This document shows positions 5,408-24,747 of a stretch of DNA of 64,000 nucleotides, in pieces (the stretch's first letter is position 1; the number at the start of each line of letters is the position of its first letter). The DNA comes from Eubacteriales bacterium (GTDB taxonomy: Bacteria; Bacillota; Clostridia; Lachnospirales; JAVBKL01): the NCBI GenBank assembly GCA_031554055.1, contig JAVBKL010000056.1, positions 645-64,644 on the forward strand, given 5' to 3'. A model generated the notes under the pieces. That model worked only from the letters and a program-made list of their open reading frames with translations. It ran no database searches and was not told where the DNA came from. Position numbers and translations under genes: made by a program.

Positions 5408-5623
5408 TTAAATCTTATGATTGAAATACTCTGTTGTCACTTTCAGTTGCTTCTTTAAAATTTCTTTCCATAAGTGACCCTGTATCTCACCAGACCCTTT
5501 TGAAACTTTGGTTCTTTTCACTTCACCTTTTTCAAATTTTCTGTAAAAGTAGTGGTCTGTATCTTTATACAATTCCCACCCGTCTTTTTCACAAAAACGT
5601 TTTAATTCTTTCCAGCTTGGCAT
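5408..5623 (-). CDS. HicA-like type II toxin (mRNA interferase)
   Basis: 71-aa basic protein MPSWKELKRFCEKDGW...TDHYFYRK...WKEILKKQL; overlaps the upstream antitoxin gene. Confidence 0.75.
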   Translation of the reverse strand: MPSWKELKRFCEKDGWELYKDTDHYFYRKFEKGEVKRTKVSKGSGEIQGHLWKEILKKQLKVTTEYFNHKI

Positions 5624-6030
5624 ATAATTCTACCCCTGAGTTCGTCATCAGTAGCAGTCAGGATTTCTAGTACATACGGATAATGTTGTTTTCGGCTTCC
5701 AACATACCAATTCTCAATATCTTCATAATATTCTTGAGCATACTCACGCATGTCATTGATGAGATTACTAATGGATTCAGATTTATCTTTTCCATTTGAA
5801 ACCAAATCAAGTTCATTTAAGGATAGCGTTATGCTGCCATCATCTTCAATAAATTCGGAAGCATTTAACTGATAAGCACTCAGTATCTCGTTTAATAGTT
5901 CATATTTCAACAAAACTATATTATCACGCAACCTTGTTGCTATTATAGGTTTGTTCTTCCTAGCAATAATATCAAGATTTTCGCTAAAGTTATTTCGTAG
6001 TTCCGTAGCATTTAATGTGCTTAGCATCAA
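5602..6030 (-). CDS. Antitoxin with Phd/YefM-like N-terminus and acidic C-terminal domain
   Basis: N-terminal NATELRNNFSENLD...PIIATR pattern; acidic C-half; GGAGG RBS; upstream of a small basic toxin. Confidence 0.7.
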   Translation of the reverse strand: MMLSTLNATELRNNFSENLDIIARKNKPIIATRLRDNIVLLKYELLNEILSAYQLNASEFIEDDGSITLSLNELDLVSNGKDKSESISNLINDMREYAQEYYEDIENWYVGSRKQHYPYVLEILTATDDELRGRIICQAGKN

Positions 6031-18560: not shown

Positions 18561-19433
18561 ATGCAAGAAAAAATATCACAGCTTGTGATGGAACGGTTTC
18601 AAAAATTTAAGTTGGCATATGACGAATCATTGGCCACTGTAACAAATGATTTAAAATTGGTAGCCGATAATAAGCCCATTGATACCAATAAACTTTATAA
18701 CTCAATCGAAAATTCTGTTTTGGCATTGGAACGCCCCAGTGATGTATTTCTTTTTTTGCATTACCTTCCCTACCAAGTCGTGCATGTATTTTCGCATAGC
18801 CTTAACGTCGCCATCTTAACCTATATGTTTGCTCGCAAGCAAAATTTAGAGCCTAGCAAATGGCGTGAACTTGTCTTAAGCGGTGCTTTGTTTGATGTTG
18901 GAATGCTTTTGATTGACAAAGAGATTATAATCAAAAGAGAAAAACTTAACGCAAATGAATATGAGCAAATTGATCAACATTCACGATATGGTTACATGCT
19001 ATTGAAAACGCTAAACTTTAGTGACGAGATTTGCAAAGTCGCTTTAATGCACCATAAAAGATTGAATGGAAAAGGCTACCCCAGAGATGTTTCGGCAGCC
19101 GACATAACAGAATTTACAAAAATTATAACCATTCTTGACATGTACGAAGCCATGACGTCTAACAGGGTTTATAGAAATGCCCTTTCACCTTTTGAAGTTT
19201 TACGAAGGTTTCAAGTCAAGGGCTTTGCAACCCTAGACCCTGCTTATATGCTTACATTTTTAACTGCGGTGTCCAATGCCTGTATTGGTAACGAAGTTAT
19301 TTTATCCTCGGGCGAAATTGGCGAGGTAGTTTTGGTCAACAAAGATGACCTTGCTCGTCCTCTCATTAAAATCGGCGGTGTATTTGTTAATCTCGCTGAA
19401 AGAAAAGACCTAAGTATCATTCGGTGGGCGTAA
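18561..19433 (+). CDS. HD-GYP domain protein with degenerate HD motif
   Basis: SHSLNVA, HHKRLNGKGYP and MTSNRVYR are present, but LHDIG reads LFDVG. Confidence 0.85.
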   Translation: MQEKISQLVMERFQKFKLAYDESLATVTNDLKLVADNKPIDTNKLYNSIENSVLALERPSDVFLFLHYLPYQVVHVFSHSLNVAILTYMFARKQNLEPSKWRELVLSGALFDVGMLLIDKEIIIKREKLNANEYEQIDQHSRYGYMLLKTLNFSDEICKVALMHHKRLNGKGYPRDVSAADITEFTKIITILDMYEAMTSNRVYRNALSPFEVLRRFQVKGFATLDPAYMLTFLTAVSNACIGNEVILSSGEIGEVVLVNKDDLARPLIKIGGVFVNLAERKDLSIIRWA

Positions 19434-19443
19434 GCAAGAATAC

Positions 19444-19486
19444 AAAAAAGTGGCGGTACACGTGATGTGTGTCGCCACTTTTTTTT
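19444..19486. terminator. Bidirectional intrinsic terminator
   Basis: AAAAAAGTGGCG-GTACAC...GTGTGT-CGCCACTTTTTTTT between convergent transcription units. Confidence 0.8.
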
Positions 19487-19734
19487 GCACAATGATACTG
19501 CTTTGCGGATCATAAAGCGTCAACTACCTCATACGCAAACCGTTCTCAAAGATTTTAAAGATGTTTGATTTTTGAACTTTGATGTTTGACCTTTAAACAT
19601 CTGAAATTTAAATTTTAACCTGTGAGTTTTAAACTTTGGGCTTTGAATTTGTTTTCAAAGTTATCAATAACATGTCTGCACTTTAACCCAAGTGCTAGGG
19701 GAGGTAGGTTTATTATTTTCGTATCATTATGCAA
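19485..19734 (-). ncRNA. Putative structured ncRNA with a 7-nt repeat array
   Basis: 14-bp terminal helix (19721-19734 with 19485-19498), internal hairpin 19678-19695, long-range pair CUACCUC/GAGGUAG and 12 heptamer repeats. Lies between a stop codon and a terminator. Confidence 0.65.
19563..19647 (-). repeat. Twelve degenerate tandem heptamers (RNA consensus close to UUCAAAG / NUYAAAN)
   Basis: Plus strand: GTTTGAT TTTTGAA CTTTGAT GTTTGAC CTTTAAA c ATCTGAA ATTTAAA TTTTAAC CTGTGAG TTTTAAA CTTTGGG CTTTGAA. Confidence 0.85.
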
Positions 19735-19740
19735 ATTGCA

Positions 19741-20376
19741 TTAACTCAATAATTCGATTTCAAGTTTTGTCGTTGCGTTTGATTCCGATAATATATAATC
19801 AACTTCATTCTCAAACTCATAAATTGCATCTAAGAGCTTTTGAATTCTGTCCGAGATATTGCTTGGGTCGATTAGTTCCCATTTGTTTCTGTTCTCAAAA
19901 AGGCGGGTATGCTCCTCAATTTCTGACGGAACACGTTTGTCCTTTTCTCCCAAAATCGACTGCAAATAGCTTTCGAGTTTGAAGGGGATCTGTGCGTTTT
20001 CTGATTCGACGATGTTGTTGTTTCTTGTGTATTGGGTTTGGAGGTGCATGAGCAGATCTTTTTCGTAATGAATCGAATTTTTTCGTTCAATCGCTTCTGC
20101 CACTGTATACTCTTTGTTCCCAATTTTGACAACAACACTGGCGTTTGACGAAACAACAACGTCTTTAATTCTTTTGCGGTTTTCAATCAAAGCAAACACT
20201 TTGTCAAAGTTGCCCTGAATCATTCTCTTTGTTTCATCAATTGTTTTACCCTGAATTTTATCGTTGGATTTTTTGTTTGCGATTACATACATCGAATCGT
20301 AGCAGTCTTTAATTTTGCTGTCATACATCTTCAATTCAGAAAGTGCCCTGTGTACCGAATACAAAACTTTTGCCAT
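19741..20376 (-). CDS. Uncharacterised helical/coiled-coil protein
   Basis: 211 aa with GGAGG RBS. Conserved-looking blocks VHRALSELK, YTVAEAIERK and FENEVDYILSESNATT; no catalytic motif seen. Confidence 0.8.
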   Translation of the reverse strand: MAKVLYSVHRALSELKMYDSKIKDCYDSMYVIANKKSNDKIQGKTIDETKRMIQGNFDKVFALIENRKRIKDVVVSSNASVVVKIGNKEYTVAEAIERKNSIHYEKDLLMHLQTQYTRNNNIVESENAQIPFKLESYLQSILGEKDKRVPSEIEEHTRLFENRNKWELIDPSNISDRIQKLLDAIYEFENEVDYILSESNATTKLEIELLS

Positions 20377-20387
20377 AAAAAAACCTC

Positions 20388-22562
20388 CTATTTGGATTCA
20401 TTTGCACCATTATCAAAAAACGTATACCTCCCACGTCCAGCGTCCTTGCTTTTATAAAGTGCTGCGTCAGCCTTTTTAAAAAGCTCTGGATAATTTTCGC
20501 CATGTGTGGGAAACTCGCAGATGCCAATGGAACAGCCAAGTGGAAGTTTATCATAAGCTTTAAGCTCTGCCAGTATTTGATCAAGCATAACAGACACACA
20601 ATTTTTGTCAAGCCCTATCACAGCAAATACGTACTCGTCACCACCCACACGTCCAACGATTGCCTCTTGTGGACAAACCTTTTTAAGGGTATCGGCAACA
20701 AAAATAATGACTTCGTCGCCAAACCTATGCCCATAGGTGTCGTTGATATGTTTGAGGTAGTCTAGGTCAATTACACAAAGTGTAAATGCGTCACCTCTCG
20801 CAATCCATTCAGAAATTTTGTCTTCAAACGAAAACCTGTTGAGCAGTTTTGTTAAAAAATCTTGGTATTTGAGTGATTCCCATTTGTCGTGATAGCGTTT
20901 TCTTTTATAAAGTAAGAGCGAAATACTACCGAACACAACCGCAAAAAAACCGATAGCAATGGCAACACGTCCGAGCAAAATTAATCTGTTTTGTGCCGCA
21001 TCTTTTCGCTCAAGGCTTTGTGTTGAATCATAGACATTTTGATAATATTTAAGCCTTGGAAAATACTCATTCGACTCCTTGATTTTCTCGGAGGACACCT
21101 CAAACAATTCGAGCAGGACAGCTTTAATTTTGCTGTCGTTGCGAATCAAGTACACATACTTATAATTGCCAAACGTGCCCTTGCCCACCAAATTTTCCAT
21201 CAGTGATTTCGACGTGACATTATCATCAATTAAAGCGTAATCAATTTTCCCTTTTGAAACCGCACGAGTTAGAGAATCAATGGATTTAAAATGCACAAAT
21301 TTTATTTTTTCGCCGTTGTTTACCACTTTGTTATCGACATAAAACTTAAAGTCATTTAAATATCCAAGCCTAATTTTTTCATTGTTTGCATTAAACGAAG
21401 GTGTGTGTACATCGCCATACACTTTGTATTCAGACGCAAAAAGATCTAAGTTTGTGTAATCGGTATAACGAATGAATGATGACTCGCCAAAGCTTGCCTT
21501 CGGCACAAAAATCGCATCTATCTCGCCCCTATAAAATTGATTGAGTATCTCTTCAAAGCTGCCGTGTTCATAACCAACATTGTACCCAAACCTCATTTTT
21601 AACTCATCAATAATTAAAAACGGAACACCAAATATTTTTTCATCCGCAATAAATTGAAAAGGCTCTTCGTCAAATATTCCAAAAACTGGTGTAGGCAATT
21701 TATCCATTAACAAAGATACCGCAGGCTCAATGCCCGCCATTTTTCGGTTATACCGCATCTCGCCTTTTTTAACCAACGAGGATAATTGTTCATCCCCAAG
21801 CGTTTTGTTTAAAATCGAAACAAGAATGTCCTGTCCATAAAAAAACATGCGTAATGGGCTTGGTTCAAAAAAAGGAATTTCCTCAACGTTTGGATAATTG
21901 GCTTGTATTTGTGCGCTTCGCACGGTGGACAGCATAACATCAATTTCATCATTTTGAAGTGCATTTGCAAGTTCAAAAAAAGTATTGAAGTATACAAACT
22001 TTGCAGTTGATAATTTTTTTTCAAGTTCTATAGAACTTAAAAACTCCGGCCTTGTCATCACACCAATCACAACTTTTGATGAACCAGAAAAACTTTCAAT
22101 TTTATCTTTTTTTGCATAAAAACGCTGCATCAGTCTCAAGTCTTCATGCTTAAACGACTTGGCAACTGTTTCTGGAAAAGCACCTTCTCGCATATGTGTC
22201 AAGCTGTTATCGGCAACACCCACTTGTTCTTCGAGGTCAGATACACTTGGCTGAACCACCAGCTTCACAGGCAGCCCTGTTTTGTCAGAAACAATTTGCA
22301 TAATGTCCGCTATGTAGCCTTTGTAAGAGCCGTAATACATATAGGTCGGGCTGAACGTGCTAAAAAAATTGATTACAATGCCATCGTCTTGATGCTTCTC
22401 TATAAATTTTTTTTCTTCATCGCTAAATGAAACACCACGGCTCAAATCAATGGGTACGGTTTCTGGAAAAACCCAGTCAACTGCCAACACAACATGGGCA
22501 TTCCATATGCTCATATACGCCACAAAAGCAAGGATTGCTATGTGCTTAATAATGTGTTTCAA
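20388..22562 (-). CDS. Diguanylate cyclase with extracellular solute-binding domains
   Basis: DFLTKLLNR, DLDYLKHINDTYGH, RVGGDEY; single TM. Likely start is TTG 22562 after AGAGGG. Confidence 0.88.
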   Translation of the reverse strand: MKHIIKHIAILAFVAYMSIWNAHVVLAVDWVFPETVPIDLSRGVSFSDEEKKFIEKHQDDGIVINFFSTFSPTYMYYGSYKGYIADIMQIVSDKTGLPVKLVVQPSVSDLEEQVGVADNSLTHMREGAFPETVAKSFKHEDLRLMQRFYAKKDKIESFSGSSKVVIGVMTRPEFLSSIELEKKLSTAKFVYFNTFFELANALQNDEIDVMLSTVRSAQIQANYPNVEEIPFFEPSPLRMFFYGQDILVSILNKTLGDEQLSSLVKKGEMRYNRKMAGIEPAVSLLMDKLPTPVFGIFDEEPFQFIADEKIFGVPFLIIDELKMRFGYNVGYEHGSFEEILNQFYRGEIDAIFVPKASFGESSFIRYTDYTNLDLFASEYKVYGDVHTPSFNANNEKIRLGYLNDFKFYVDNKVVNNGEKIKFVHFKSIDSLTRAVSKGKIDYALIDDNVTSKSLMENLVGKGTFGNYKYVYLIRNDSKIKAVLLELFEVSSEKIKESNEYFPRLKYYQNVYDSTQSLERKDAAQNRLILLGRVAIAIGFFAVVFGSISLLLYKRKRYHDKWESLKYQDFLTKLLNRFSFEDKISEWIARGDAFTLCVIDLDYLKHINDTYGHRFGDEVIIFVADTLKKVCPQEAIVGRVGGDEYVFAVIGLDKNCVSVMLDQILAELKAYDKLPLGCSIGICEFPTHGENYPELFKKADAALYKSKDAGRGRYTFFDNGANESK

Positions 22563-22581
22563 ACCAATCCCTCTTTCGCAA

Positions 22582-24747
22582 TCATTTATAAACAGAGTAC
22601 CTGTCACGACCCTGTTGCTTGCTCTCAAAAAGTGCCTTGTCGGTATTTAAATAAATTTCGGCAAGGTCATTGCTGTCCTTTGGATAATTACTGATTCCAA
22701 TGGAGAGCGTAATTTTTACGTGCTCTTCTTTGTACATAAATTTTGAAACGGCTTGCTGCACTTTCTCAAATTTCCGAATTGTTTCTTCAAGCGATAGCTT
22801 TGTGATGACCGTAAACTCGTCACCGCCGATTCTTGCCGCTAACCCTTTTTCAAAAAACTCGTCCTGTAAAGAATTTGCAACCTTAATTAAAGCTTGATCG
22901 CCGCAGTCATGCCCATATTTATCGTTAAATTGCTTGAAAAAATCCACATCAATCAATGCCACATGAAACGTTTTTTTCTCTTGCATGAGCTTATTCATGT
23001 ACGTTTCCGCCGCAAAGCGATTACTGATTTTCGTTAAATGATCAGATACTCTAAGGTAGTCTGTCTTTTTTTGCTCAACTCTTCGCATAATCAGCCCAAT
23101 TGAAATTGTGATAAATGCGATTACACCAATTGACAAAACAAACGCAATAAAAAACAGAGCATTCGCCCTTTTATTCGCTTCCATCGCAATGGTTCTTTGC
23201 AGTGTCGCCTCGTACAGAATCGTATTTGTTCCAAGGGTAAGTAAATAATTCTCGTTTTGCAACTCGCTCGAAAATGGTCCCGCATCAGAAAACAATGCAT
23301 TGTATAGGTGTTTCACATAATCATCATGATGCGTATAGACAACAAACTCGTACCTTGCAAAAATTCCTTTTTCAAAAAGCCCTTCGTACTGTTCCCCCAC
23401 GCTGTAAACATCGAGTGCCGCATAATCCACTTCACCCGTTGTTACGGCTTTGGCAACTTCTGCTAGGGTTGCATATCTTGTAAATATAAGATCATCGCTG
23501 TCATGCAATCTACCCGAATTTAATAATCCGTCAAACTCCGAAGTCACGCCGACATTTATTTTTTTGTTGTCAGCGATACGCTCCCTATAACCCACATAAC
23601 GCTGGTCTTCTTTTCCATAGAGCATGATGTTACCTTTTTGAATCACAAACTTGGGGTATGTTGAAATTTCTATCTGCTCACTTGAATAGTTTTTTTCTTG
23701 CCCCAAAAAAGGCAGAAGCTCTATGTTTGGAAAAATATCAATTTCGTTTCTCATAAACATTTGAAACAGCTTGCTATACTCGCCGTCAATATATTTTGTC
23801 TGGATTCCATAGTCATCTTTAATTTTATCAGCAATTTGTGTAAACAACCCTGCTTTTATCTCGCCAAGCGAGAAGTGAAACATGGGCGATTCGTAAAAGG
23901 CAAATGAAATGGTTTTATCATTCTTTGGTGAATACACAATGTCATGGCTTAATTTCAAATTACCAAGGTTGCTCGTGAGCAGATTGGCATTAAATATTTG
24001 GTAAACATCGGTTTCTGCCATGATTGCGTCTAGCACCGAAATAAATTCTGCATCACCAAAAAATCGGGTAGCCACATTGATTGTCTGCAAAACATTGACA
24101 GGCTCAATTCCTTTAAACTCATTGGTTATGTAGGAGTAGTTTGGCAACAATACCATTTCAATTTCGCCGTTCATAAGAGCTTGGTACATATGTTCGTAGG
24201 TACTGTACTTGAGTGCGTAAATTCCCTTGAACTGGTTCAAAAGCCTCTCATATGCGTCTCGATCAATATCAACAAACCCAACTGTGTACTTCTGCGTATC
24301 AGAAAATTCTCTTGATACCGTTGTTGGTTTATAAAACGCATAATCCAAATAAAGTTCTGATTTTGTATAAGCCATTCCCGAGACATTGCCTATAAATGAA
24401 ACAAAATTGGCGTTTGCCTCTTTCTCGTTTAATGACTCCACACATTCTGCCAAGTCGCTCTTAATAACAACATCCACGTTGATTCCTGTTATGTCTGTAA
24501 AAATCTGCATGGCGTCGGGAATAAAACCATGCAAGTACCCCTCGGCACATTCAGAAATTTGAGCACTCTCGCCTTTCCAATAAACAAACTTCAATGTCCG
24601 TCCTTTGTTCTCTTCAATCCATTTGTTCTGCTCTTGAGTAAACGAAACTGCATCCTTTGCCATAACTGTCTGAATACCAATAACAGCAACGCAAATATAC
24701 GTTACTGTTATCAATAAGAGCTTCAAAATGGATTTTATTTTTGTCAT
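22582..24747 (-). CDS. Diguanylate cyclase with extracellular solute-binding domains
   Basis: DHLTKISNR, DVDFFKQFNDKYGH, RIGGDEF; signal peptide and one TM. Confidence 0.9.
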   Translation of the reverse strand: MTKIKSILKLLLITVTYICVAVIGIQTVMAKDAVSFTQEQNKWIEENKGRTLKFVYWKGESAQISECAEGYLHGFIPDAMQIFTDITGINVDVVIKSDLAECVESLNEKEANANFVSFIGNVSGMAYTKSELYLDYAFYKPTTVSREFSDTQKYTVGFVDIDRDAYERLLNQFKGIYALKYSTYEHMYQALMNGEIEMVLLPNYSYITNEFKGIEPVNVLQTINVATRFFGDAEFISVLDAIMAETDVYQIFNANLLTSNLGNLKLSHDIVYSPKNDKTISFAFYESPMFHFSLGEIKAGLFTQIADKIKDDYGIQTKYIDGEYSKLFQMFMRNEIDIFPNIELLPFLGQEKNYSSEQIEISTYPKFVIQKGNIMLYGKEDQRYVGYRERIADNKKINVGVTSEFDGLLNSGRLHDSDDLIFTRYATLAEVAKAVTTGEVDYAALDVYSVGEQYEGLFEKGIFARYEFVVYTHHDDYVKHLYNALFSDAGPFSSELQNENYLLTLGTNTILYEATLQRTIAMEANKRANALFFIAFVLSIGVIAFITISIGLIMRRVEQKKTDYLRVSDHLTKISNRFAAETYMNKLMQEKKTFHVALIDVDFFKQFNDKYGHDCGDQALIKVANSLQDEFFEKGLAARIGGDEFTVITKLSLEETIRKFEKVQQAVSKFMYKEEHVKITLSIGISNYPKDSNDLAEIYLNTDKALFESKQQGRDRYSVYK

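What the first reader, a model, noticed from the sequence alone, without database searches (positions are those of the whole stretch)
19485..20376. Candidate undescribed protein + heptamer-repeat ncRNA system
Seen: 6 nt after the stop of an uncharacterised 211-aa helical protein, a 250-nt element begins. Its ends pair over 14 bp (UUGCAUAAUGAUAC / GUAUCAUUGUGCAA, one G-U), and a terminator follows immediately. Inside are a 6-bp hairpin (19678-19695) and 12 phased 7-nt repeats (19563-19647, about UUCAAAG) bracketed by CUUUGA(A/G)AA copies. Known: TRAP rings wrap arrays of short RNA repeats, and type III toxin-antitoxin systems pair a protein with a repeat RNA. This locus matches neither, and it is not CRISPR (no spacers). 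Inference: the protein oligomerises on the single-stranded array, perhaps one subunit per heptamer, forming an RNP ring or filament whose size or activity is set by the RNA. The function (defence, toxin-antitoxin, structural) is unknown. I recall similar uncharacterised proteins in Firmicutes and their phages, possibly DIP1984-like, but cannot verify this here.
Basis: partly seen in the sequence, partly recalled or inferred. Interest (0 to 1): 0.9.

Follow-up and report, generated by a model that had tools for sequence, protein, structure and literature searches.

The report
Undescribed phage/bacterial protein with heptamer-repeat RNA
A small helical protein found in many large phages and some Firmicutes is almost always followed by a conserved, folded RNA carrying about eleven 7-letter repeats, which looks like an unrecognised protein-RNA particle, possibly linked to tRNA biology.

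Summary
The 211-aa protein (window 19741-20376, minus strand) belongs to PHROG 1491, labelled 'tail fiber protein' and homologous to phage T5 gene T5.085. It matches no Pfam, NCBIfam or PADLOC family and no solved fold. The family is large: 2,933 clusters at 50% identity and 729 phage records.

A profile of the downstream element hit the same strand just after the gene in 160 of 162 loci, and in 8 of 8 further named phage records (6 of 8 at E<0.001). The RNA has these parts:
- a closing helix and a 5-bp 3' helix, both with abundant compensatory changes (58 of 58 sequences keep the 3' helix);
- an H-type pseudoknot;
- a single-stranded array of about 88 nt with strict 7-nt periodicity (unit about AAAGnUy; 7 units, a linker, 4 units).

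Rfam 15 has no family for it, and seven literature searches found nothing.

In phages the module sits inside same-strand tRNA arrays. Some copies carry a whole tRNA or a YrlA-like tRNA mimic inside the RNA. A metatranscriptome contig covers the gene plus the RNA. The protein is predicted to form a homodimer.

That the protein binds the heptamers is plausible but untested, and the function is unknown. The DIP1984 recollection is not supported.

The parts
19741..20376 (-). Gene for the 211-aa helical protein (PHROG 1491; homologue of phage T5 gene T5.085; usually labelled 'tail fiber protein' or hypothetical)
   Evidence: ORF. phrog_1491 E 4.7e-56 over the full length. No Pfam, NCBIfam or PADLOC family. 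AF2 pLDDT 84, helical bundle with short strands. No PDB fold match, best E 0.29. Predicted homodimer.
20584..20611 (-). Promoter-like site (TTGACA, 16-nt spacer, TG-extended TATGCT) inside the 3' end of the upstream GGDEF gene
   Evidence: Consensus scan, 10 of 12 matches. The RNA-library contig reaches up to 20642. This is a consensus match only.
19484..19735 (-). The whole structured RNA element (252 nt), from the 5' strand to the 3' strand of closing helix P1
   Evidence: nhmmer profile hit in the window's own genome, E 3.2e-33, single copy. Covariance model R1 scores 73 bits on its 3' part.
19721..19735 (-). P1, 5' strand of the closing helix; pairs with 19484-19498
   Evidence: 15 bp in the window. 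All 12 aligned pairs change on both sides across 26 sequences. With P5, 85% of cells are paired against 62% in shuffles, 0 of 500 shuffles as high.
19708..19720 (-). Conserved A-rich single-stranded joiner (family consensus about GAAAAC...AAAC)
   Evidence: Conserved columns in alignment A2.
19678..19701 (-). H-type pseudoknot. Stem 1 is CCC (19698-19700) with GGG (19687-19689). Stem 2 is the 6-bp hairpin at 19678-19695, whose loop holds the GGG.
   Evidence: The same topology appears with different sequences in many lineages. The pseudoknot finder scored >=28 in 40 of 74 sequences against 5 of 370 shuffles.
19652..19677 (-). Variable region, short here. In relatives it holds hairpins, a whole tRNA or a YrlA-like tRNA mimic.
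   Evidence: Alignments. L112 carries tRNA-Gly inside the P1-closed element. YrlA model hits at 30-48 bits in 5 of 7 loci.
19556..19651 (-). Single-stranded heptamer array, unit about AAAGnUy. In most relatives it is 7 units, a CUCUU-type linker, then 4 units. In this window it is nearly continuous, 12-13 units.
   Evidence: TRF period 7. Lag-7 identity 0.573 against 0.315, 0 of 2000 shuffles as high. Family-wide autocorrelation peaks at lags 7, 14 and 21. Array length is 87-90 nt in 109 of 151 elements. RNAalifold leaves it essentially unpaired (a single 2-bp pair within the array).
19498..19555 (-). 3' domain: AAAUC motif, helix P5 (19547-19551 with 19501-19505), inner helices P6a and P6b, and the GC(A/U)G junction to P1
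   Evidence: P5 is paired in 58 of 58 sequences, with 3 of 5 pairs covarying. P6a is 81% paired with compensatory changes. P6b is 58% paired.
19484..19498 (-). P1, 3' strand
19444..19483 (.). A run, G+C-rich hairpin and U run: a likely two-way terminator shared with the convergent HD-domain gene (18561-19433, +)
   Evidence: Hairpin in the MFE fold. Not called by the simple terminator scan.

Best explanation
This is a self-contained two-part module of about 1 kb: a promoter, a gene for a roughly 210-aa helical protein, and directly behind it on the same transcript a conserved structured RNA of 250-440 nt, followed by a terminator or, in phages, a tRNA.

Shown:
- The RNA is closed by a long helix (P1).
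- It carries an H-type pseudoknot at its 5' side and a compact 3' domain (P5, P6).
- Between them lies a single-stranded array of fixed length, about 88 nt, made of 7-nt units (AAAGnUy).

Inferred:
- The protein forms symmetric dimers that bind the repeated units. This would give a defined ribonucleoprotein in which the folded ends hold the array as a loop and the array sets the number of bound subunits (about 11-13 sites, roughly 6 dimers).

Inferred more weakly:
- The particle acts in tRNA or translation-related RNA metabolism. In phages it is embedded in tRNA arrays and can itself carry a tRNA or a tRNA mimic.
- By analogy with Ro60 and its Y RNA, it may be a scaffold or decoy that brings the protein together with factors that recognise tRNA.
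- In bacteria it is a solitary accessory cassette.
For: Pairing of gene and RNA:
- The RNA lies on the gene's strand directly downstream in 160 of 162 loci. The loci came from 80 bacterial genome contigs, 80 IMG/VR contigs and 2 phage records.
- It is also present in 8 of 8 further named phage records from 8 different phage groups.
- In the other direction, the covariance model of the RNA's 3' part found exactly one hit next to the gene in each of the 3 genomes with a full-length protein. It found none in 150 other genomes of the phylum.
- The window's own genome holds a single copy.

RNA structure:
- P1 and P5 are 85% paired against 62% in shuffles (0 of 500 as high). The covariation score is 0.646, against at most 0.198 for slid controls.
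- P5 is paired in 58 of 58 sequences.
- The pseudoknot is enriched over shuffles.

Array:
- Period 7 is conserved across 81 non-redundant arrays.
- Length is 87-90 nt in 109 of 151 elements, with a second mode about 7 nt longer.
- RNAalifold leaves it essentially unpaired (a single 2-bp pair within the array).

Protein:
- It always stands alone at about 205-215 aa. There are 2,933 clusters and no longer fused forms were found.
- No enzyme family or known fold matches.
- The homodimer prediction scored ipSAE 0.65 (three runs, 0.65-0.66) against a best control of 0.00. The runs agree in at least 94% of contacts and partner pLDDT is at least 90. In the tool's calibration this mark was reached by 20 of 30 solved homo-pairs and 1 of 23 single chains; because my own alignment was used, these counts hold only roughly.

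Expression:
- An RNA-library contig of 1167 nt at depth 26.9 spans 19498-20642, which is the gene plus the RNA.
- Neighbouring stretches have depth 0-6.7, and 19 of 30 bins across the 7 kb laid have none.

tRNA link:
- 29 of 42 viral loci have same-strand tRNAs within 2.5 kb, against 1 of 18 bacterial loci.
- A tRNA sits inside the P1-closed element in L112.
- A YrlA-like module occurs in 5 of 7 loci tested, at E 6e-8 to 0.008.
Against: - No protein-RNA contact has been tested, so the heptamers could bind something else or act as RNA alone.
- The predicted dimer is two-fold symmetric, whereas the commonest array has 7+4 = 11 clear units.
- The protein has no recognisable RNA-binding domain.
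- The tRNA link is by position and by inserts present in only a subset. Bacterial copies, including this window, have no tRNA nearby and no tRNA-like insert.
- The YrlA matches are below Rfam's gathering score (30-48 bits against 69).
- Contigs from an RNA library cannot prove a single transcript, its ends or its strand.
- The many 'tail fiber protein' labels, if they rested on any experiment, would point elsewhere. I saw no such experiment.
Confidence: 0.5

Rival explanations
1. A toxin-antitoxin or abortive-infection logic, like type III systems. The protein is harmful when free and the repeat RNA sequesters many copies of it. When transcription stops or the RNA decays, for example during infection, the protein is released. 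Phage copies would then act as counter-measures or addiction modules.
For: - It is a solitary 1-kb cassette among unrelated housekeeping genes in bacteria.
- It is sporadic, in 4 of 401 genomes of the phylum.
- It is shared between phages and bacteria.
- A protein sits next to a repeat RNA, and many binding sites per RNA would suit sequestration.
- One Brevibacillus locus has an AbiEii-family gene nearby.
Against: - There is no match to PADLOC models or to any Pfam family, and so to none of the type III toxin families if those are among Pfam's models (not checked).
- The RNA lies downstream of the gene, not upstream behind a terminator.
- The units are 7 nt, not about 36 nt, and they sit inside an elaborate fold with a pseudoknot.
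- The module is conserved in hundreds of strictly lytic phages inside tRNA arrays.
- No toxicity data exist.
Confidence: 0.15
2. The RNA is the main actor: a Y-RNA-like or tRNA-mimic scaffold or decoy for host factors such as tRNA-processing enzymes, modification enzymes or nucleases. The heptamers bind a host factor or fold into RNA-only tertiary structure. The protein is only a stabiliser or chaperone.
For: - A YrlA-type module (T arm, closed acceptor stem-loop, D arm) sits inside some copies (architecture compared with passages of PMC4201824).
- Whole tRNAs are embedded in others.
- The module lies inside tRNA arrays, as is reported for the RNA-only ROOL and GOLLD RNAs. I recall that point; the papers were seen only in search listings.
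Against: - Gene and RNA co-occur strictly, in both directions, in the samples searched. This argues that the protein is an obligate partner.
- Most copies, including this window, lack any tRNA-like insert.
Confidence: 0.15
3. The element is a cis-acting 3' UTR. It would be an autoregulatory, stability or processing element for the upstream mRNA or, in phages, for the downstream tRNAs, not a separate functional RNA.
For: - It is always on the same transcript side as the gene.
- One RNA-library contig spans both.
- In phages tRNAs start 9-50 nt after it.
Against: - A 250-440-nt fold with a pseudoknot, a fixed 88-nt repeat array and conserved motifs is far more than a stabiliser needs.
- The same RNA is kept in bacteria that have no downstream tRNA.
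Confidence: 0.08
4. It is a DNA-level feature: terminal inverted repeats of a small mobile element, or iterons or a packaging site beside the gene.
For: The ends are inverted repeats, and the middle holds short direct repeats.
Against: - The inverted ends covary rather than being conserved, and G-U pairs are tolerated on one strand only.
- All 168 hits are on the gene's strand.
- The window's own genome has one copy.
- A 7-bp spacing does not fit the DNA helical repeat.
Confidence: 0.03

Closest known systems
Ro60 (Rsr) with bacterial Y RNAs of the YrlA type
   Same: - A protein gene sits next to its partner RNA.
- The RNA is closed by a helix formed from its 5' and 3' ends and is modular.
- A subset carries a tRNA-like module in the YrlA order: T arm, closed acceptor stem-loop, D arm. 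Rfam RF02553 hits reach 30-48 bits; the architecture is as described in passages of PMC4201824.
- It also occurs in phages.
   Different: - The protein is a 211-aa helical protein, not a TROVE ring.
- No TROVE gene was found in 0 of 5 viral records that carry the YrlA-like module.
- The YrlA hits are below the gathering score of 69 bits.
- Most members, including this window, have no tRNA-like module.
- Y RNAs have no heptamer array and no such pseudoknot or 3' domain.
TRAP (trp RNA-binding attenuation protein) wrapping 11 (G/U)AG repeats
   Same: A single-stranded array of about 11 short phased repeats, which could wrap or line a protein oligomer with one unit per subunit.
   Different: - The unit is 7 nt (AAAGnUy), not a triplet with 2-3-nt spacers.
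- The protein is helical and predicted to be dimeric, not a beta-sandwich 11-mer; there is no Pfam match.
- The array lies in a stand-alone folded RNA downstream of the protein's own gene, not in a leader it regulates.
Type III toxin-antitoxin systems (ToxIN, CptIN, TenpIN, AbiQ/antiQ)
   Same: A protein plus a tandem-repeat RNA encoded side by side, an accessory distribution, and presence in phages.
   Different: See the membership test: the repeat length, gene order and toxin family do not fit, and the RNA has an elaborate non-repeat fold.
SmpB with tmRNA
   Same: - A small protein gene next to a partner RNA.
- Paired ends, a pseudoknot ahead of a single-stranded central stretch, and a short helix stacked next to the 3' strand of the end helix.
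- A link to tRNAs.
   Different: - ARAGORN and Rfam do not call tmRNA here.
- The closing helix is 12-20 bp with no CCA end.
- The array cannot be a reading frame, because a 7-nt period puts stop triplets in all frames.
- The protein did not match Pfam's SmpB family or any other Pfam family and is predicted to be helical.
ROOL and GOLLD RNAs (large ornate RNAs of phages and prophages)
   Same: Structured RNAs of unknown function that occur in phages near tRNA genes.
   Different: - Those are 500-800 nt, form RNA-only cages and have no dedicated partner protein. This is recalled; the papers were seen only in search listings.
- Rfam models for them do not match here.

Membership tests
PHROG 1491 (phage protein family labelled 'tail fiber protein') | Full-length match to the family profile | tested here: met
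   E 4.7e-56, residues 6-208 on profile positions 5-210 of 211. The label itself is unverified. The gene sits among early genes and tRNAs in T5-like DT57C and Bc431v3, not in tail modules.
Type III toxin-antitoxin | Toxin is an endoribonuclease of the ToxN/AbiQ, CptN or TenpN families | tested here: not met
   The best Pfam hit has E 0.1 and is unrelated. PADLOC returned 0 families. The fold is a helical bundle.
Type III toxin-antitoxin | Antitoxin is an array of about 34-36-nt tandem repeats upstream of the toxin gene, separated by a terminator | tested here: not met
   The repeats are 7 nt and lie downstream of the gene inside a larger fold.
Type III toxin-antitoxin | The toxin cuts the repeat RNA into units that inhibit it | not testable with these tools
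   Needs biochemistry.
TRAP-type attenuation | TRAP protein family, with (G/U)AG triplets in a regulated leader | tested here: not met
   No Pfam match. The unit is AAAGnUy with period 7. The array lies 3' of the protein's own gene.
CRISPR array | Repeats of 25 nt or more alternating with unique spacers | tested here: not met
   Contiguous 7-nt units with no spacers. The only CRISPR-DR hit (16 bits, E 9.9) lies elsewhere.
Y RNA / YrlA (Rfam RF02553) | Score at or above the gathering threshold (69 bits) | tested here: not met
   The window has no hit at E<=10. The best relatives score 48.2, 44.5, 32.7, 30.9 and 30.5 bits.
Y RNA / YrlA | Encoded next to a Ro60/TROVE protein, which it binds | tested here: not met
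   TROVE was found in 0 of 5 viral records that carry the YrlA-like module, while the control genomes were positive. Here the adjacent protein is PHROG 1491.
tmRNA | tRNA-like acceptor end with CCA, plus a tag reading frame | tested here: not met
   Neither ARAGORN nor Rfam calls tmRNA on the element.
Any Rfam 15 family | A covariance-model match over the element | tested here: not met
   In the window at E<=10 there were 4 junk hits of at most 16.3 bits. In 16 related loci at gathering threshold, all 51 hits were tRNA.
   NCBIfam returned 0 families at E<=1. Pfam returned nothing relevant. That such a model exists in NCBIfam is my recollection.

The most novel reading that the evidence does not exclude
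This is a new class of ribonucleoprotein. A dedicated helical protein polymerises as dimers, nucleocapsid-like, on a fixed array of about 11 heptamers that a pseudoknotted, end-closed RNA holds as a loop. Large phages carry the particle inside their tRNA arrays, sometimes with a tRNA or tRNA mimic built into the RNA. There it would act as a decoy or shield against host enzymes that recognise or cut tRNAs, or would organise the processing of phage tRNAs. Bacteria would have captured the same particle as an accessory cassette.
Probability: 0.2. Interest if true: 0.95.

Novelty: categorically new. Interest (0 to 1): 0.88.

Why it matters
If confirmed, this adds a widespread protein-RNA particle that neither Rfam nor Pfam records.

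- It is conserved from T5-like coliphages and Salmonella phages to Bacillus, Lactococcus, Vibrio and Pseudomonas phages, jumbo phages and Firmicutes chromosomes.
- It would give a function-bearing identity to a gene labelled 'tail fiber protein' in several of the 729 phage records listed. It would also explain the 300-500-nt stretch behind the gene, left unannotated (a few records place short hypothetical ORFs in it), in all 10 phage records examined.
- The 7-nt array of fixed length is an unusual RNA design and invites structural work.
- Its place inside phage tRNA arrays, and the built-in tRNAs or tRNA mimics, make it a candidate player in the conflict between phages and hosts over tRNAs.
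- T5 and Lysinibacillus offer tractable laboratory systems.

Tried and rejected
- Known protein families: Pfam's best hits were CTD7 of ABC-3C (E 0.1) and SecA_PP_bind (E 0.16), both below cut-off. NCBIfam gave 0 and PADLOC gave 0.
- PDB by sequence returned only coiled-coil noise, with GCN4 chimeras at E >= 0.009.
- Foldseek against the PDB gave a best E of 0.29.
- BFVD returned only uncharacterised phage homologues.
- The ESM Atlas returned only unnamed, mostly viral clusters. The nearest named cluster, DUF6847 on 16% of members at score 0.88, was treated as chance.
- Fused or longer relatives: none among 8000 candidates. The tool itself calls this weak evidence.
- A single-protein scan of genome contigs found no relative. 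The alignment query then did.
- The family-level genome search covered only the window's own genome.
- RNAalifold on the whole-length alignment recovered only P1, P5 and a 2-bp artefact. The inner helix P6b is weakly supported, at 58% paired.
- My pseudoknot finder misassigns some sequences, among them the window and Sporosarcina. Its counts are therefore a lower-quality statistic than the helix counts.
- The simple terminator scan found none in 19300-20900.
- Sequencing runs: X2 and X3 gave essentially no cover of the locus. The lack of cover at 19353-19497 and over most of the GGDEF genes is not evidence of absence. The adapter-like loose end at 19498 hints at an RNA or fragment end at the GC(A)G junction, but it comes from a single contig. 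I recognised the adapter from memory only.
- Ideas considered and dropped for lack of support:
  - heptamers as anticodon-loop or T-loop mimics: the conserved positions do not fit either loop consensus;
  - heptamers as Lys codons: the AAAG is degenerate;
  - a hidden reading frame: stop triplets occur in all frames;
  - an R-x4-H HEPN-like motif at residues 98-103: the His is not conserved in A1.
- Literature: seven full-text searches found no description of the protein, the RNA or the pair.
  - For one candidate preprint (10.64898/2026.09.22.753630) I saw the outline and abstract only, and it concerns other systems.
  - For PMC4201824 I read passages only. Its supplementary tables of phage YrlA RNAs could not be seen, and they may list some tRNA-like modules of this kind.
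  - The library holds only open-access papers and bioRxiv, so a paywalled description cannot be excluded.
Full report
**What is in the window.** On the minus strand, a 211-aa ORF (19741-20376) ends with TAA at 19741-19743.
- Five to six bases later a 252-nt element begins. Its first 15 nt (19721-19735) pair with its last 15 nt (19484-19498), including one G-U.
- An A run, a G+C-rich hairpin and a U run follow. The convergent HD-domain gene (18561-19433, +) appears to share this hairpin as a terminator. The simple terminator scan did not call it.
- Tandem Repeats Finder reports period 7, 11.6 copies, at 19571-19651.
- Lag-7 identity over 19556-19651 is 0.573, against 0.315 +/- 0.050 in dinucleotide shuffles. 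None of 2000 shuffles reached it at lag 7, nor at any lag from 2 to 21.
- The whole stretch folds much better than shuffles (z = -5.4).

**The protein.**
- It has no Pfam, NCBIfam or PADLOC family, so the DIP1984 recollection is not supported.
- It is a full-length member of PHROG 1491, labelled 'tail fiber protein' (E 4.7e-56).
- tblastn finds it in 729 of 50,697 phage records, and 722 of those cover at least 80% of it. The commonest are Salmonella (283), Escherichia (140), Pseudomonas (58), Vibrio (55), Bacillus (32), Klebsiella (32), Erwinia (24) and Lactococcus (21) phages.
- In T5-like phage DT57C the homologue is annotated as the counterpart of T5.085.
- A profile search counts 2,933 clusters at 50% identity with E<=0.001. 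The 150 best listed are nearly all 202-228 aa (two shorter, 138 and 155 aa).
- No longer fused forms were found, which is weak evidence.
- AlphaFold2 gives a confident helical bundle with short strands (pLDDT 84).
- Foldseek finds no solved fold (best E 0.29) and only uncharacterised phage homologues in BFVD.
- The 'tail fiber' label looks like annotation drift. In DT57C the gene lies among early genes (RNase H, thymidylate synthase, tRNAs), and in Bacillus phage Bc431v3 it lies directly after 21 tRNA genes.

**The RNA is conserved with the gene.**
- An alignment-based scan gave 80 bacterial loci: Lysinibacillus, Solibacillus, Sporosarcina, Brevibacillus, Bacillus, several Clostridia, and single MAGs labelled Parabacteroides, Thermoflexibacter, Brevefilum and others. 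It also gave 80 IMG/VR loci.
- By eye, nearly all show the same downstream architecture.
- A profile built from 26 diverse copies (A2) hit the gene's strand just behind the stop codon in 160 of 162 loci.
- The two misses were L070, a variant with a large insertion in which the motifs are visible, and L090, a contig that ends 166 nt after the stop.
- Eight further named phage records were then examined: an Otagovirus, a Ralstonia jumbo phage, Lactococcus AM11, Vibrio AG74, Salmonella PVP-SE1, Salmonella SeKF_80, Erwinia Special G and Clostridium phage D-1873. All carry the RNA, 6 of 8 at E<0.001 and the other two at E 0.0097 and 0.047 with the helices visible.
- In all ten phage records the stretch is unannotated or covered by small hypothetical ORFs.
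- The converse also holds in the samples searched. A covariance model of the 3' 105 nt (R1) found no match in 150 other genomes of the phylum. It found one match directly behind the gene in each of the three genomes with a full-length protein (G000, G218, G274). It found none in G280, which has only a 65-residue remnant of the protein.
- I could verify from the listings only for some handles that the 150 genomes are a subset of the 401 searched for the protein.
- The window's own genome holds one copy.

**Anatomy of the RNA.**
- P1, the closing helix, is 12-20 bp. All 12 aligned pairs show changes on both sides.
- P5 is a 5-bp helix flanked by the invariant motifs AAAUC and GC(U/A)G. It is paired in 58 of 58 sequences, and its three inner pairs swap freely (CG 44/UA 14; UA 41/AU 11/CG 4/GC 2; UA 31/GC 19/AU 6/CG 2).
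- On A2, P1 and P5 together are 85% paired against 62% in shuffles (0 of 500 as high). The covariation score is 0.646, against at most 0.198 when partners are slid by 1-3 columns.
- Inside P5, a 3-bp helix P6a is 81% paired with compensatory changes. P6b is weak at 58%.
- After P1 and a conserved A-rich joiner comes an H-type pseudoknot. A short C-rich strand pairs with the G-rich loop of the next hairpin. The same topology is rebuilt from different sequences in Lysinibacillus, Sporosarcina, Brevibacillus, Clostridia and viral contigs.
- A simple pseudoknot finder scores >=28 in 40 of 74 sequences, against 5 of 370 shuffles.
- Next comes a variable region and then the array.

**The heptamer array.**
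- In 81 non-redundant copies the autocorrelation of A, U and G peaks at lags 7, 14 and 21.
- The unit is A(0.9) A(0.9) A(0.75) G(0.6) n U(0.7-0.96) y.
- Most copies have seven units, a CUCUU-type linker of about 9 nt, four units, then UCGAU/UCUUU and AAAUC.
- The array is 87-90 nt long in 109 of 151 elements (52 of 76 non-redundant). A second mode lies at 94-98 nt, one unit more. The few longer arrays contain inserted hairpins.
- RNAalifold leaves the array essentially unpaired (a single 2-bp pair within it).
- A fixed number of phased single-stranded units points to a defined set of binding sites.

**Known RNA families and literature.**
- The window at E<=10 gives only four chance hits of at most 16.3 bits.
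- In sixteen related loci at gathering threshold, all 51 hits are tRNA.
- Seven literature searches found no description.

**The tRNA link.**
- ARAGORN finds same-strand tRNAs within 2.5 kb in 29 of 42 viral loci, and in 1 of 18 bacterial loci.
- Often a tRNA starts 9-50 nt after P1.
- In L112, L147, L153, L155 and L160 a tRNA lies between the stop codon and the array.
- In L112, P1 (12 pairs) encloses the pseudoknot region, a bona fide tRNA-Gly (61 bits), the array and the 3' domain.
- Other copies carry a tRNA-like module instead, in the order T arm, closed acceptor stem-loop, D arm (L162; L171).
- Rfam's YrlA model matches this module below threshold in 5 of 7 loci tested: 48.2, 44.5, 32.7, 30.9 and 30.5 bits, E 6e-8 to 0.008, against a gathering score of 69.
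- This is the module order described for bacterial Y RNAs that partner Ro60 (passages of PMC4201824).
- None of the five viral records with the module encodes a TROVE protein, while control genomes were positive.
- The window's copy has neither a tRNA nor a mimic.

**Expression.**
- One public metatranscriptomic run (X1, invertebrate gut) holds 91% of the locus's sampled words.
- When laid on 7 kb, a 1167-nt contig at depth 26.9 covers 19498-20642, which is the RNA, the gene and 266 nt upstream.
- The HD gene has only short pieces at depth 2.7-6.6, and most of the two GGDEF genes has none. In all, 19 of 30 bins are empty.
- This pattern fits a discrete, relatively abundant transcription unit better than DNA carry-over. 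Contigs cannot, however, prove a single transcript, its strand or its ends.
- A promoter-like site (10 of 12 matches, TG-extended) lies at 20611-20584.
- The contig's lower end at 19498 runs into adapter-like letters. This may mean that many fragments end at the GC(A)G junction, but it is a single-contig hint.

**Oligomer.** Two copies of the protein, given with the 35-row alignment, were predicted to form a symmetric dimer.
- The median ipSAE was 0.65 (three runs, 0.65-0.66), and the best of three controls was 0.00.
- There were about 180 contacts. The runs agree in at least 94% of contacts, and partner pLDDT is at least 90.
- In the tool's calibration this mark was reached by 20 of 30 solved homo-pairs and 1 of 23 single chains. 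Because my own alignment was used, those counts hold only roughly.
- The interface joins strand 29-37 of one copy to strand 162-172 of the other, and runs along the long helices.
- This supports self-association. It says nothing about RNA binding.

**Context in bacteria.**
- Neighbours differ from genus to genus and are ordinary: an MFS transporter and an RNA methyltransferase in Lysinibacillus; an SLH protein and an AbiEii-family gene in Brevibacillus; ECF transporter and two-component genes in a Peptostreptococcaceae genome; GGDEF and HD-domain genes here.
- The protein occurs in 4 of 401 sampled genomes of the phylum.
- It is therefore a solitary, sporadically distributed cassette.

**Interpretation.**
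- Firmly shown: a real, widespread, tightly linked protein-RNA pair with a covariation-supported fold and a conserved heptamer array.
- Most likely: the protein binds the array as dimers and forms a defined particle. I put this at about 0.5.
- More weakly supported: the particle works in tRNA-related RNA biology.
- Rivals: a sequestration or toxin-antitoxin logic (0.15), an RNA-centred scaffold or decoy (0.15), a cis-acting 3' UTR (0.08) and a DNA-level element (0.03).
- I found no family or published system to file it under. The nearest analogies are Ro60/YrlA, TRAP, type III toxin-antitoxins and SmpB/tmRNA, and each fails a defining feature that was tested.
- I therefore rate it categorically new.

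Noticed in passing
window 20388-22628 (-) and 22582-24747 (-): Two tandem large proteins, each with a periplasmic solute-binding-like part and a C-terminal GGDEF domain, lie upstream. The first was scanned against Pfam: GGDEF E 2e-31 and SBP_bac_3 E 8e-7. The second resembles it by eye only. An HD_5 (HD-GYP-like) protein is convergent at 18561-19433. Together they form a local c-di-GMP cluster that the cassette sits within.
   Followed up: partly
L083 5554-6189 (Escherichia phage DT57C, NC_027356.1 30992-31627): The record annotates a 636-nt 'rnaX: stable RNA with unknown functions' next to tRNA-Arg, about 1.6 kb downstream of the module. ARAGORN places a tRNA-Ser-like call inside it (5616-5689). 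It is a separate uncharacterised T5-group RNA.
   Followed up: no
L084 534-611 (Bacillus phage Bc431v3): ARAGORN reads this tRNA, annotated tRNA-Asn, with a four-base anticodon (ttaa). It may be an 8-nt anticodon loop or a miscall.
   Followed up: no
L154 1941-2445: ARAGORN calls a permuted tmRNA with a 25-residue tag just upstream of the PHROG 1491 gene in a viral contig, overlapping a tRNA-Met call. It may be a false positive.
   Followed up: no
L165 2189-2377, L166 2436-2732 (-), L170 2412-2504 (-): Small 'hypothetical protein' CDSs annotated in phage records lie on top of the structured RNA. They are probably spurious gene calls.
   Followed up: partly
L089, L102, L135, L142, L143, L109, L111, L118: tRNA-Leu genes with anticodon UAA or CAA are often the immediate neighbours of the module in viral contigs. 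For example, one starts about 20 nt after the RNA in L135 and L142. This was not tested against the general frequency of tRNA-Leu in phage arrays.
   Followed up: no
G280:C1:2316996-2317190: A 65-residue remnant of the protein (E 9.7e-10, 99-aa open frame) has no detectable RNA 3' domain in that genome. It may be a decayed cassette.
   Followed up: partly
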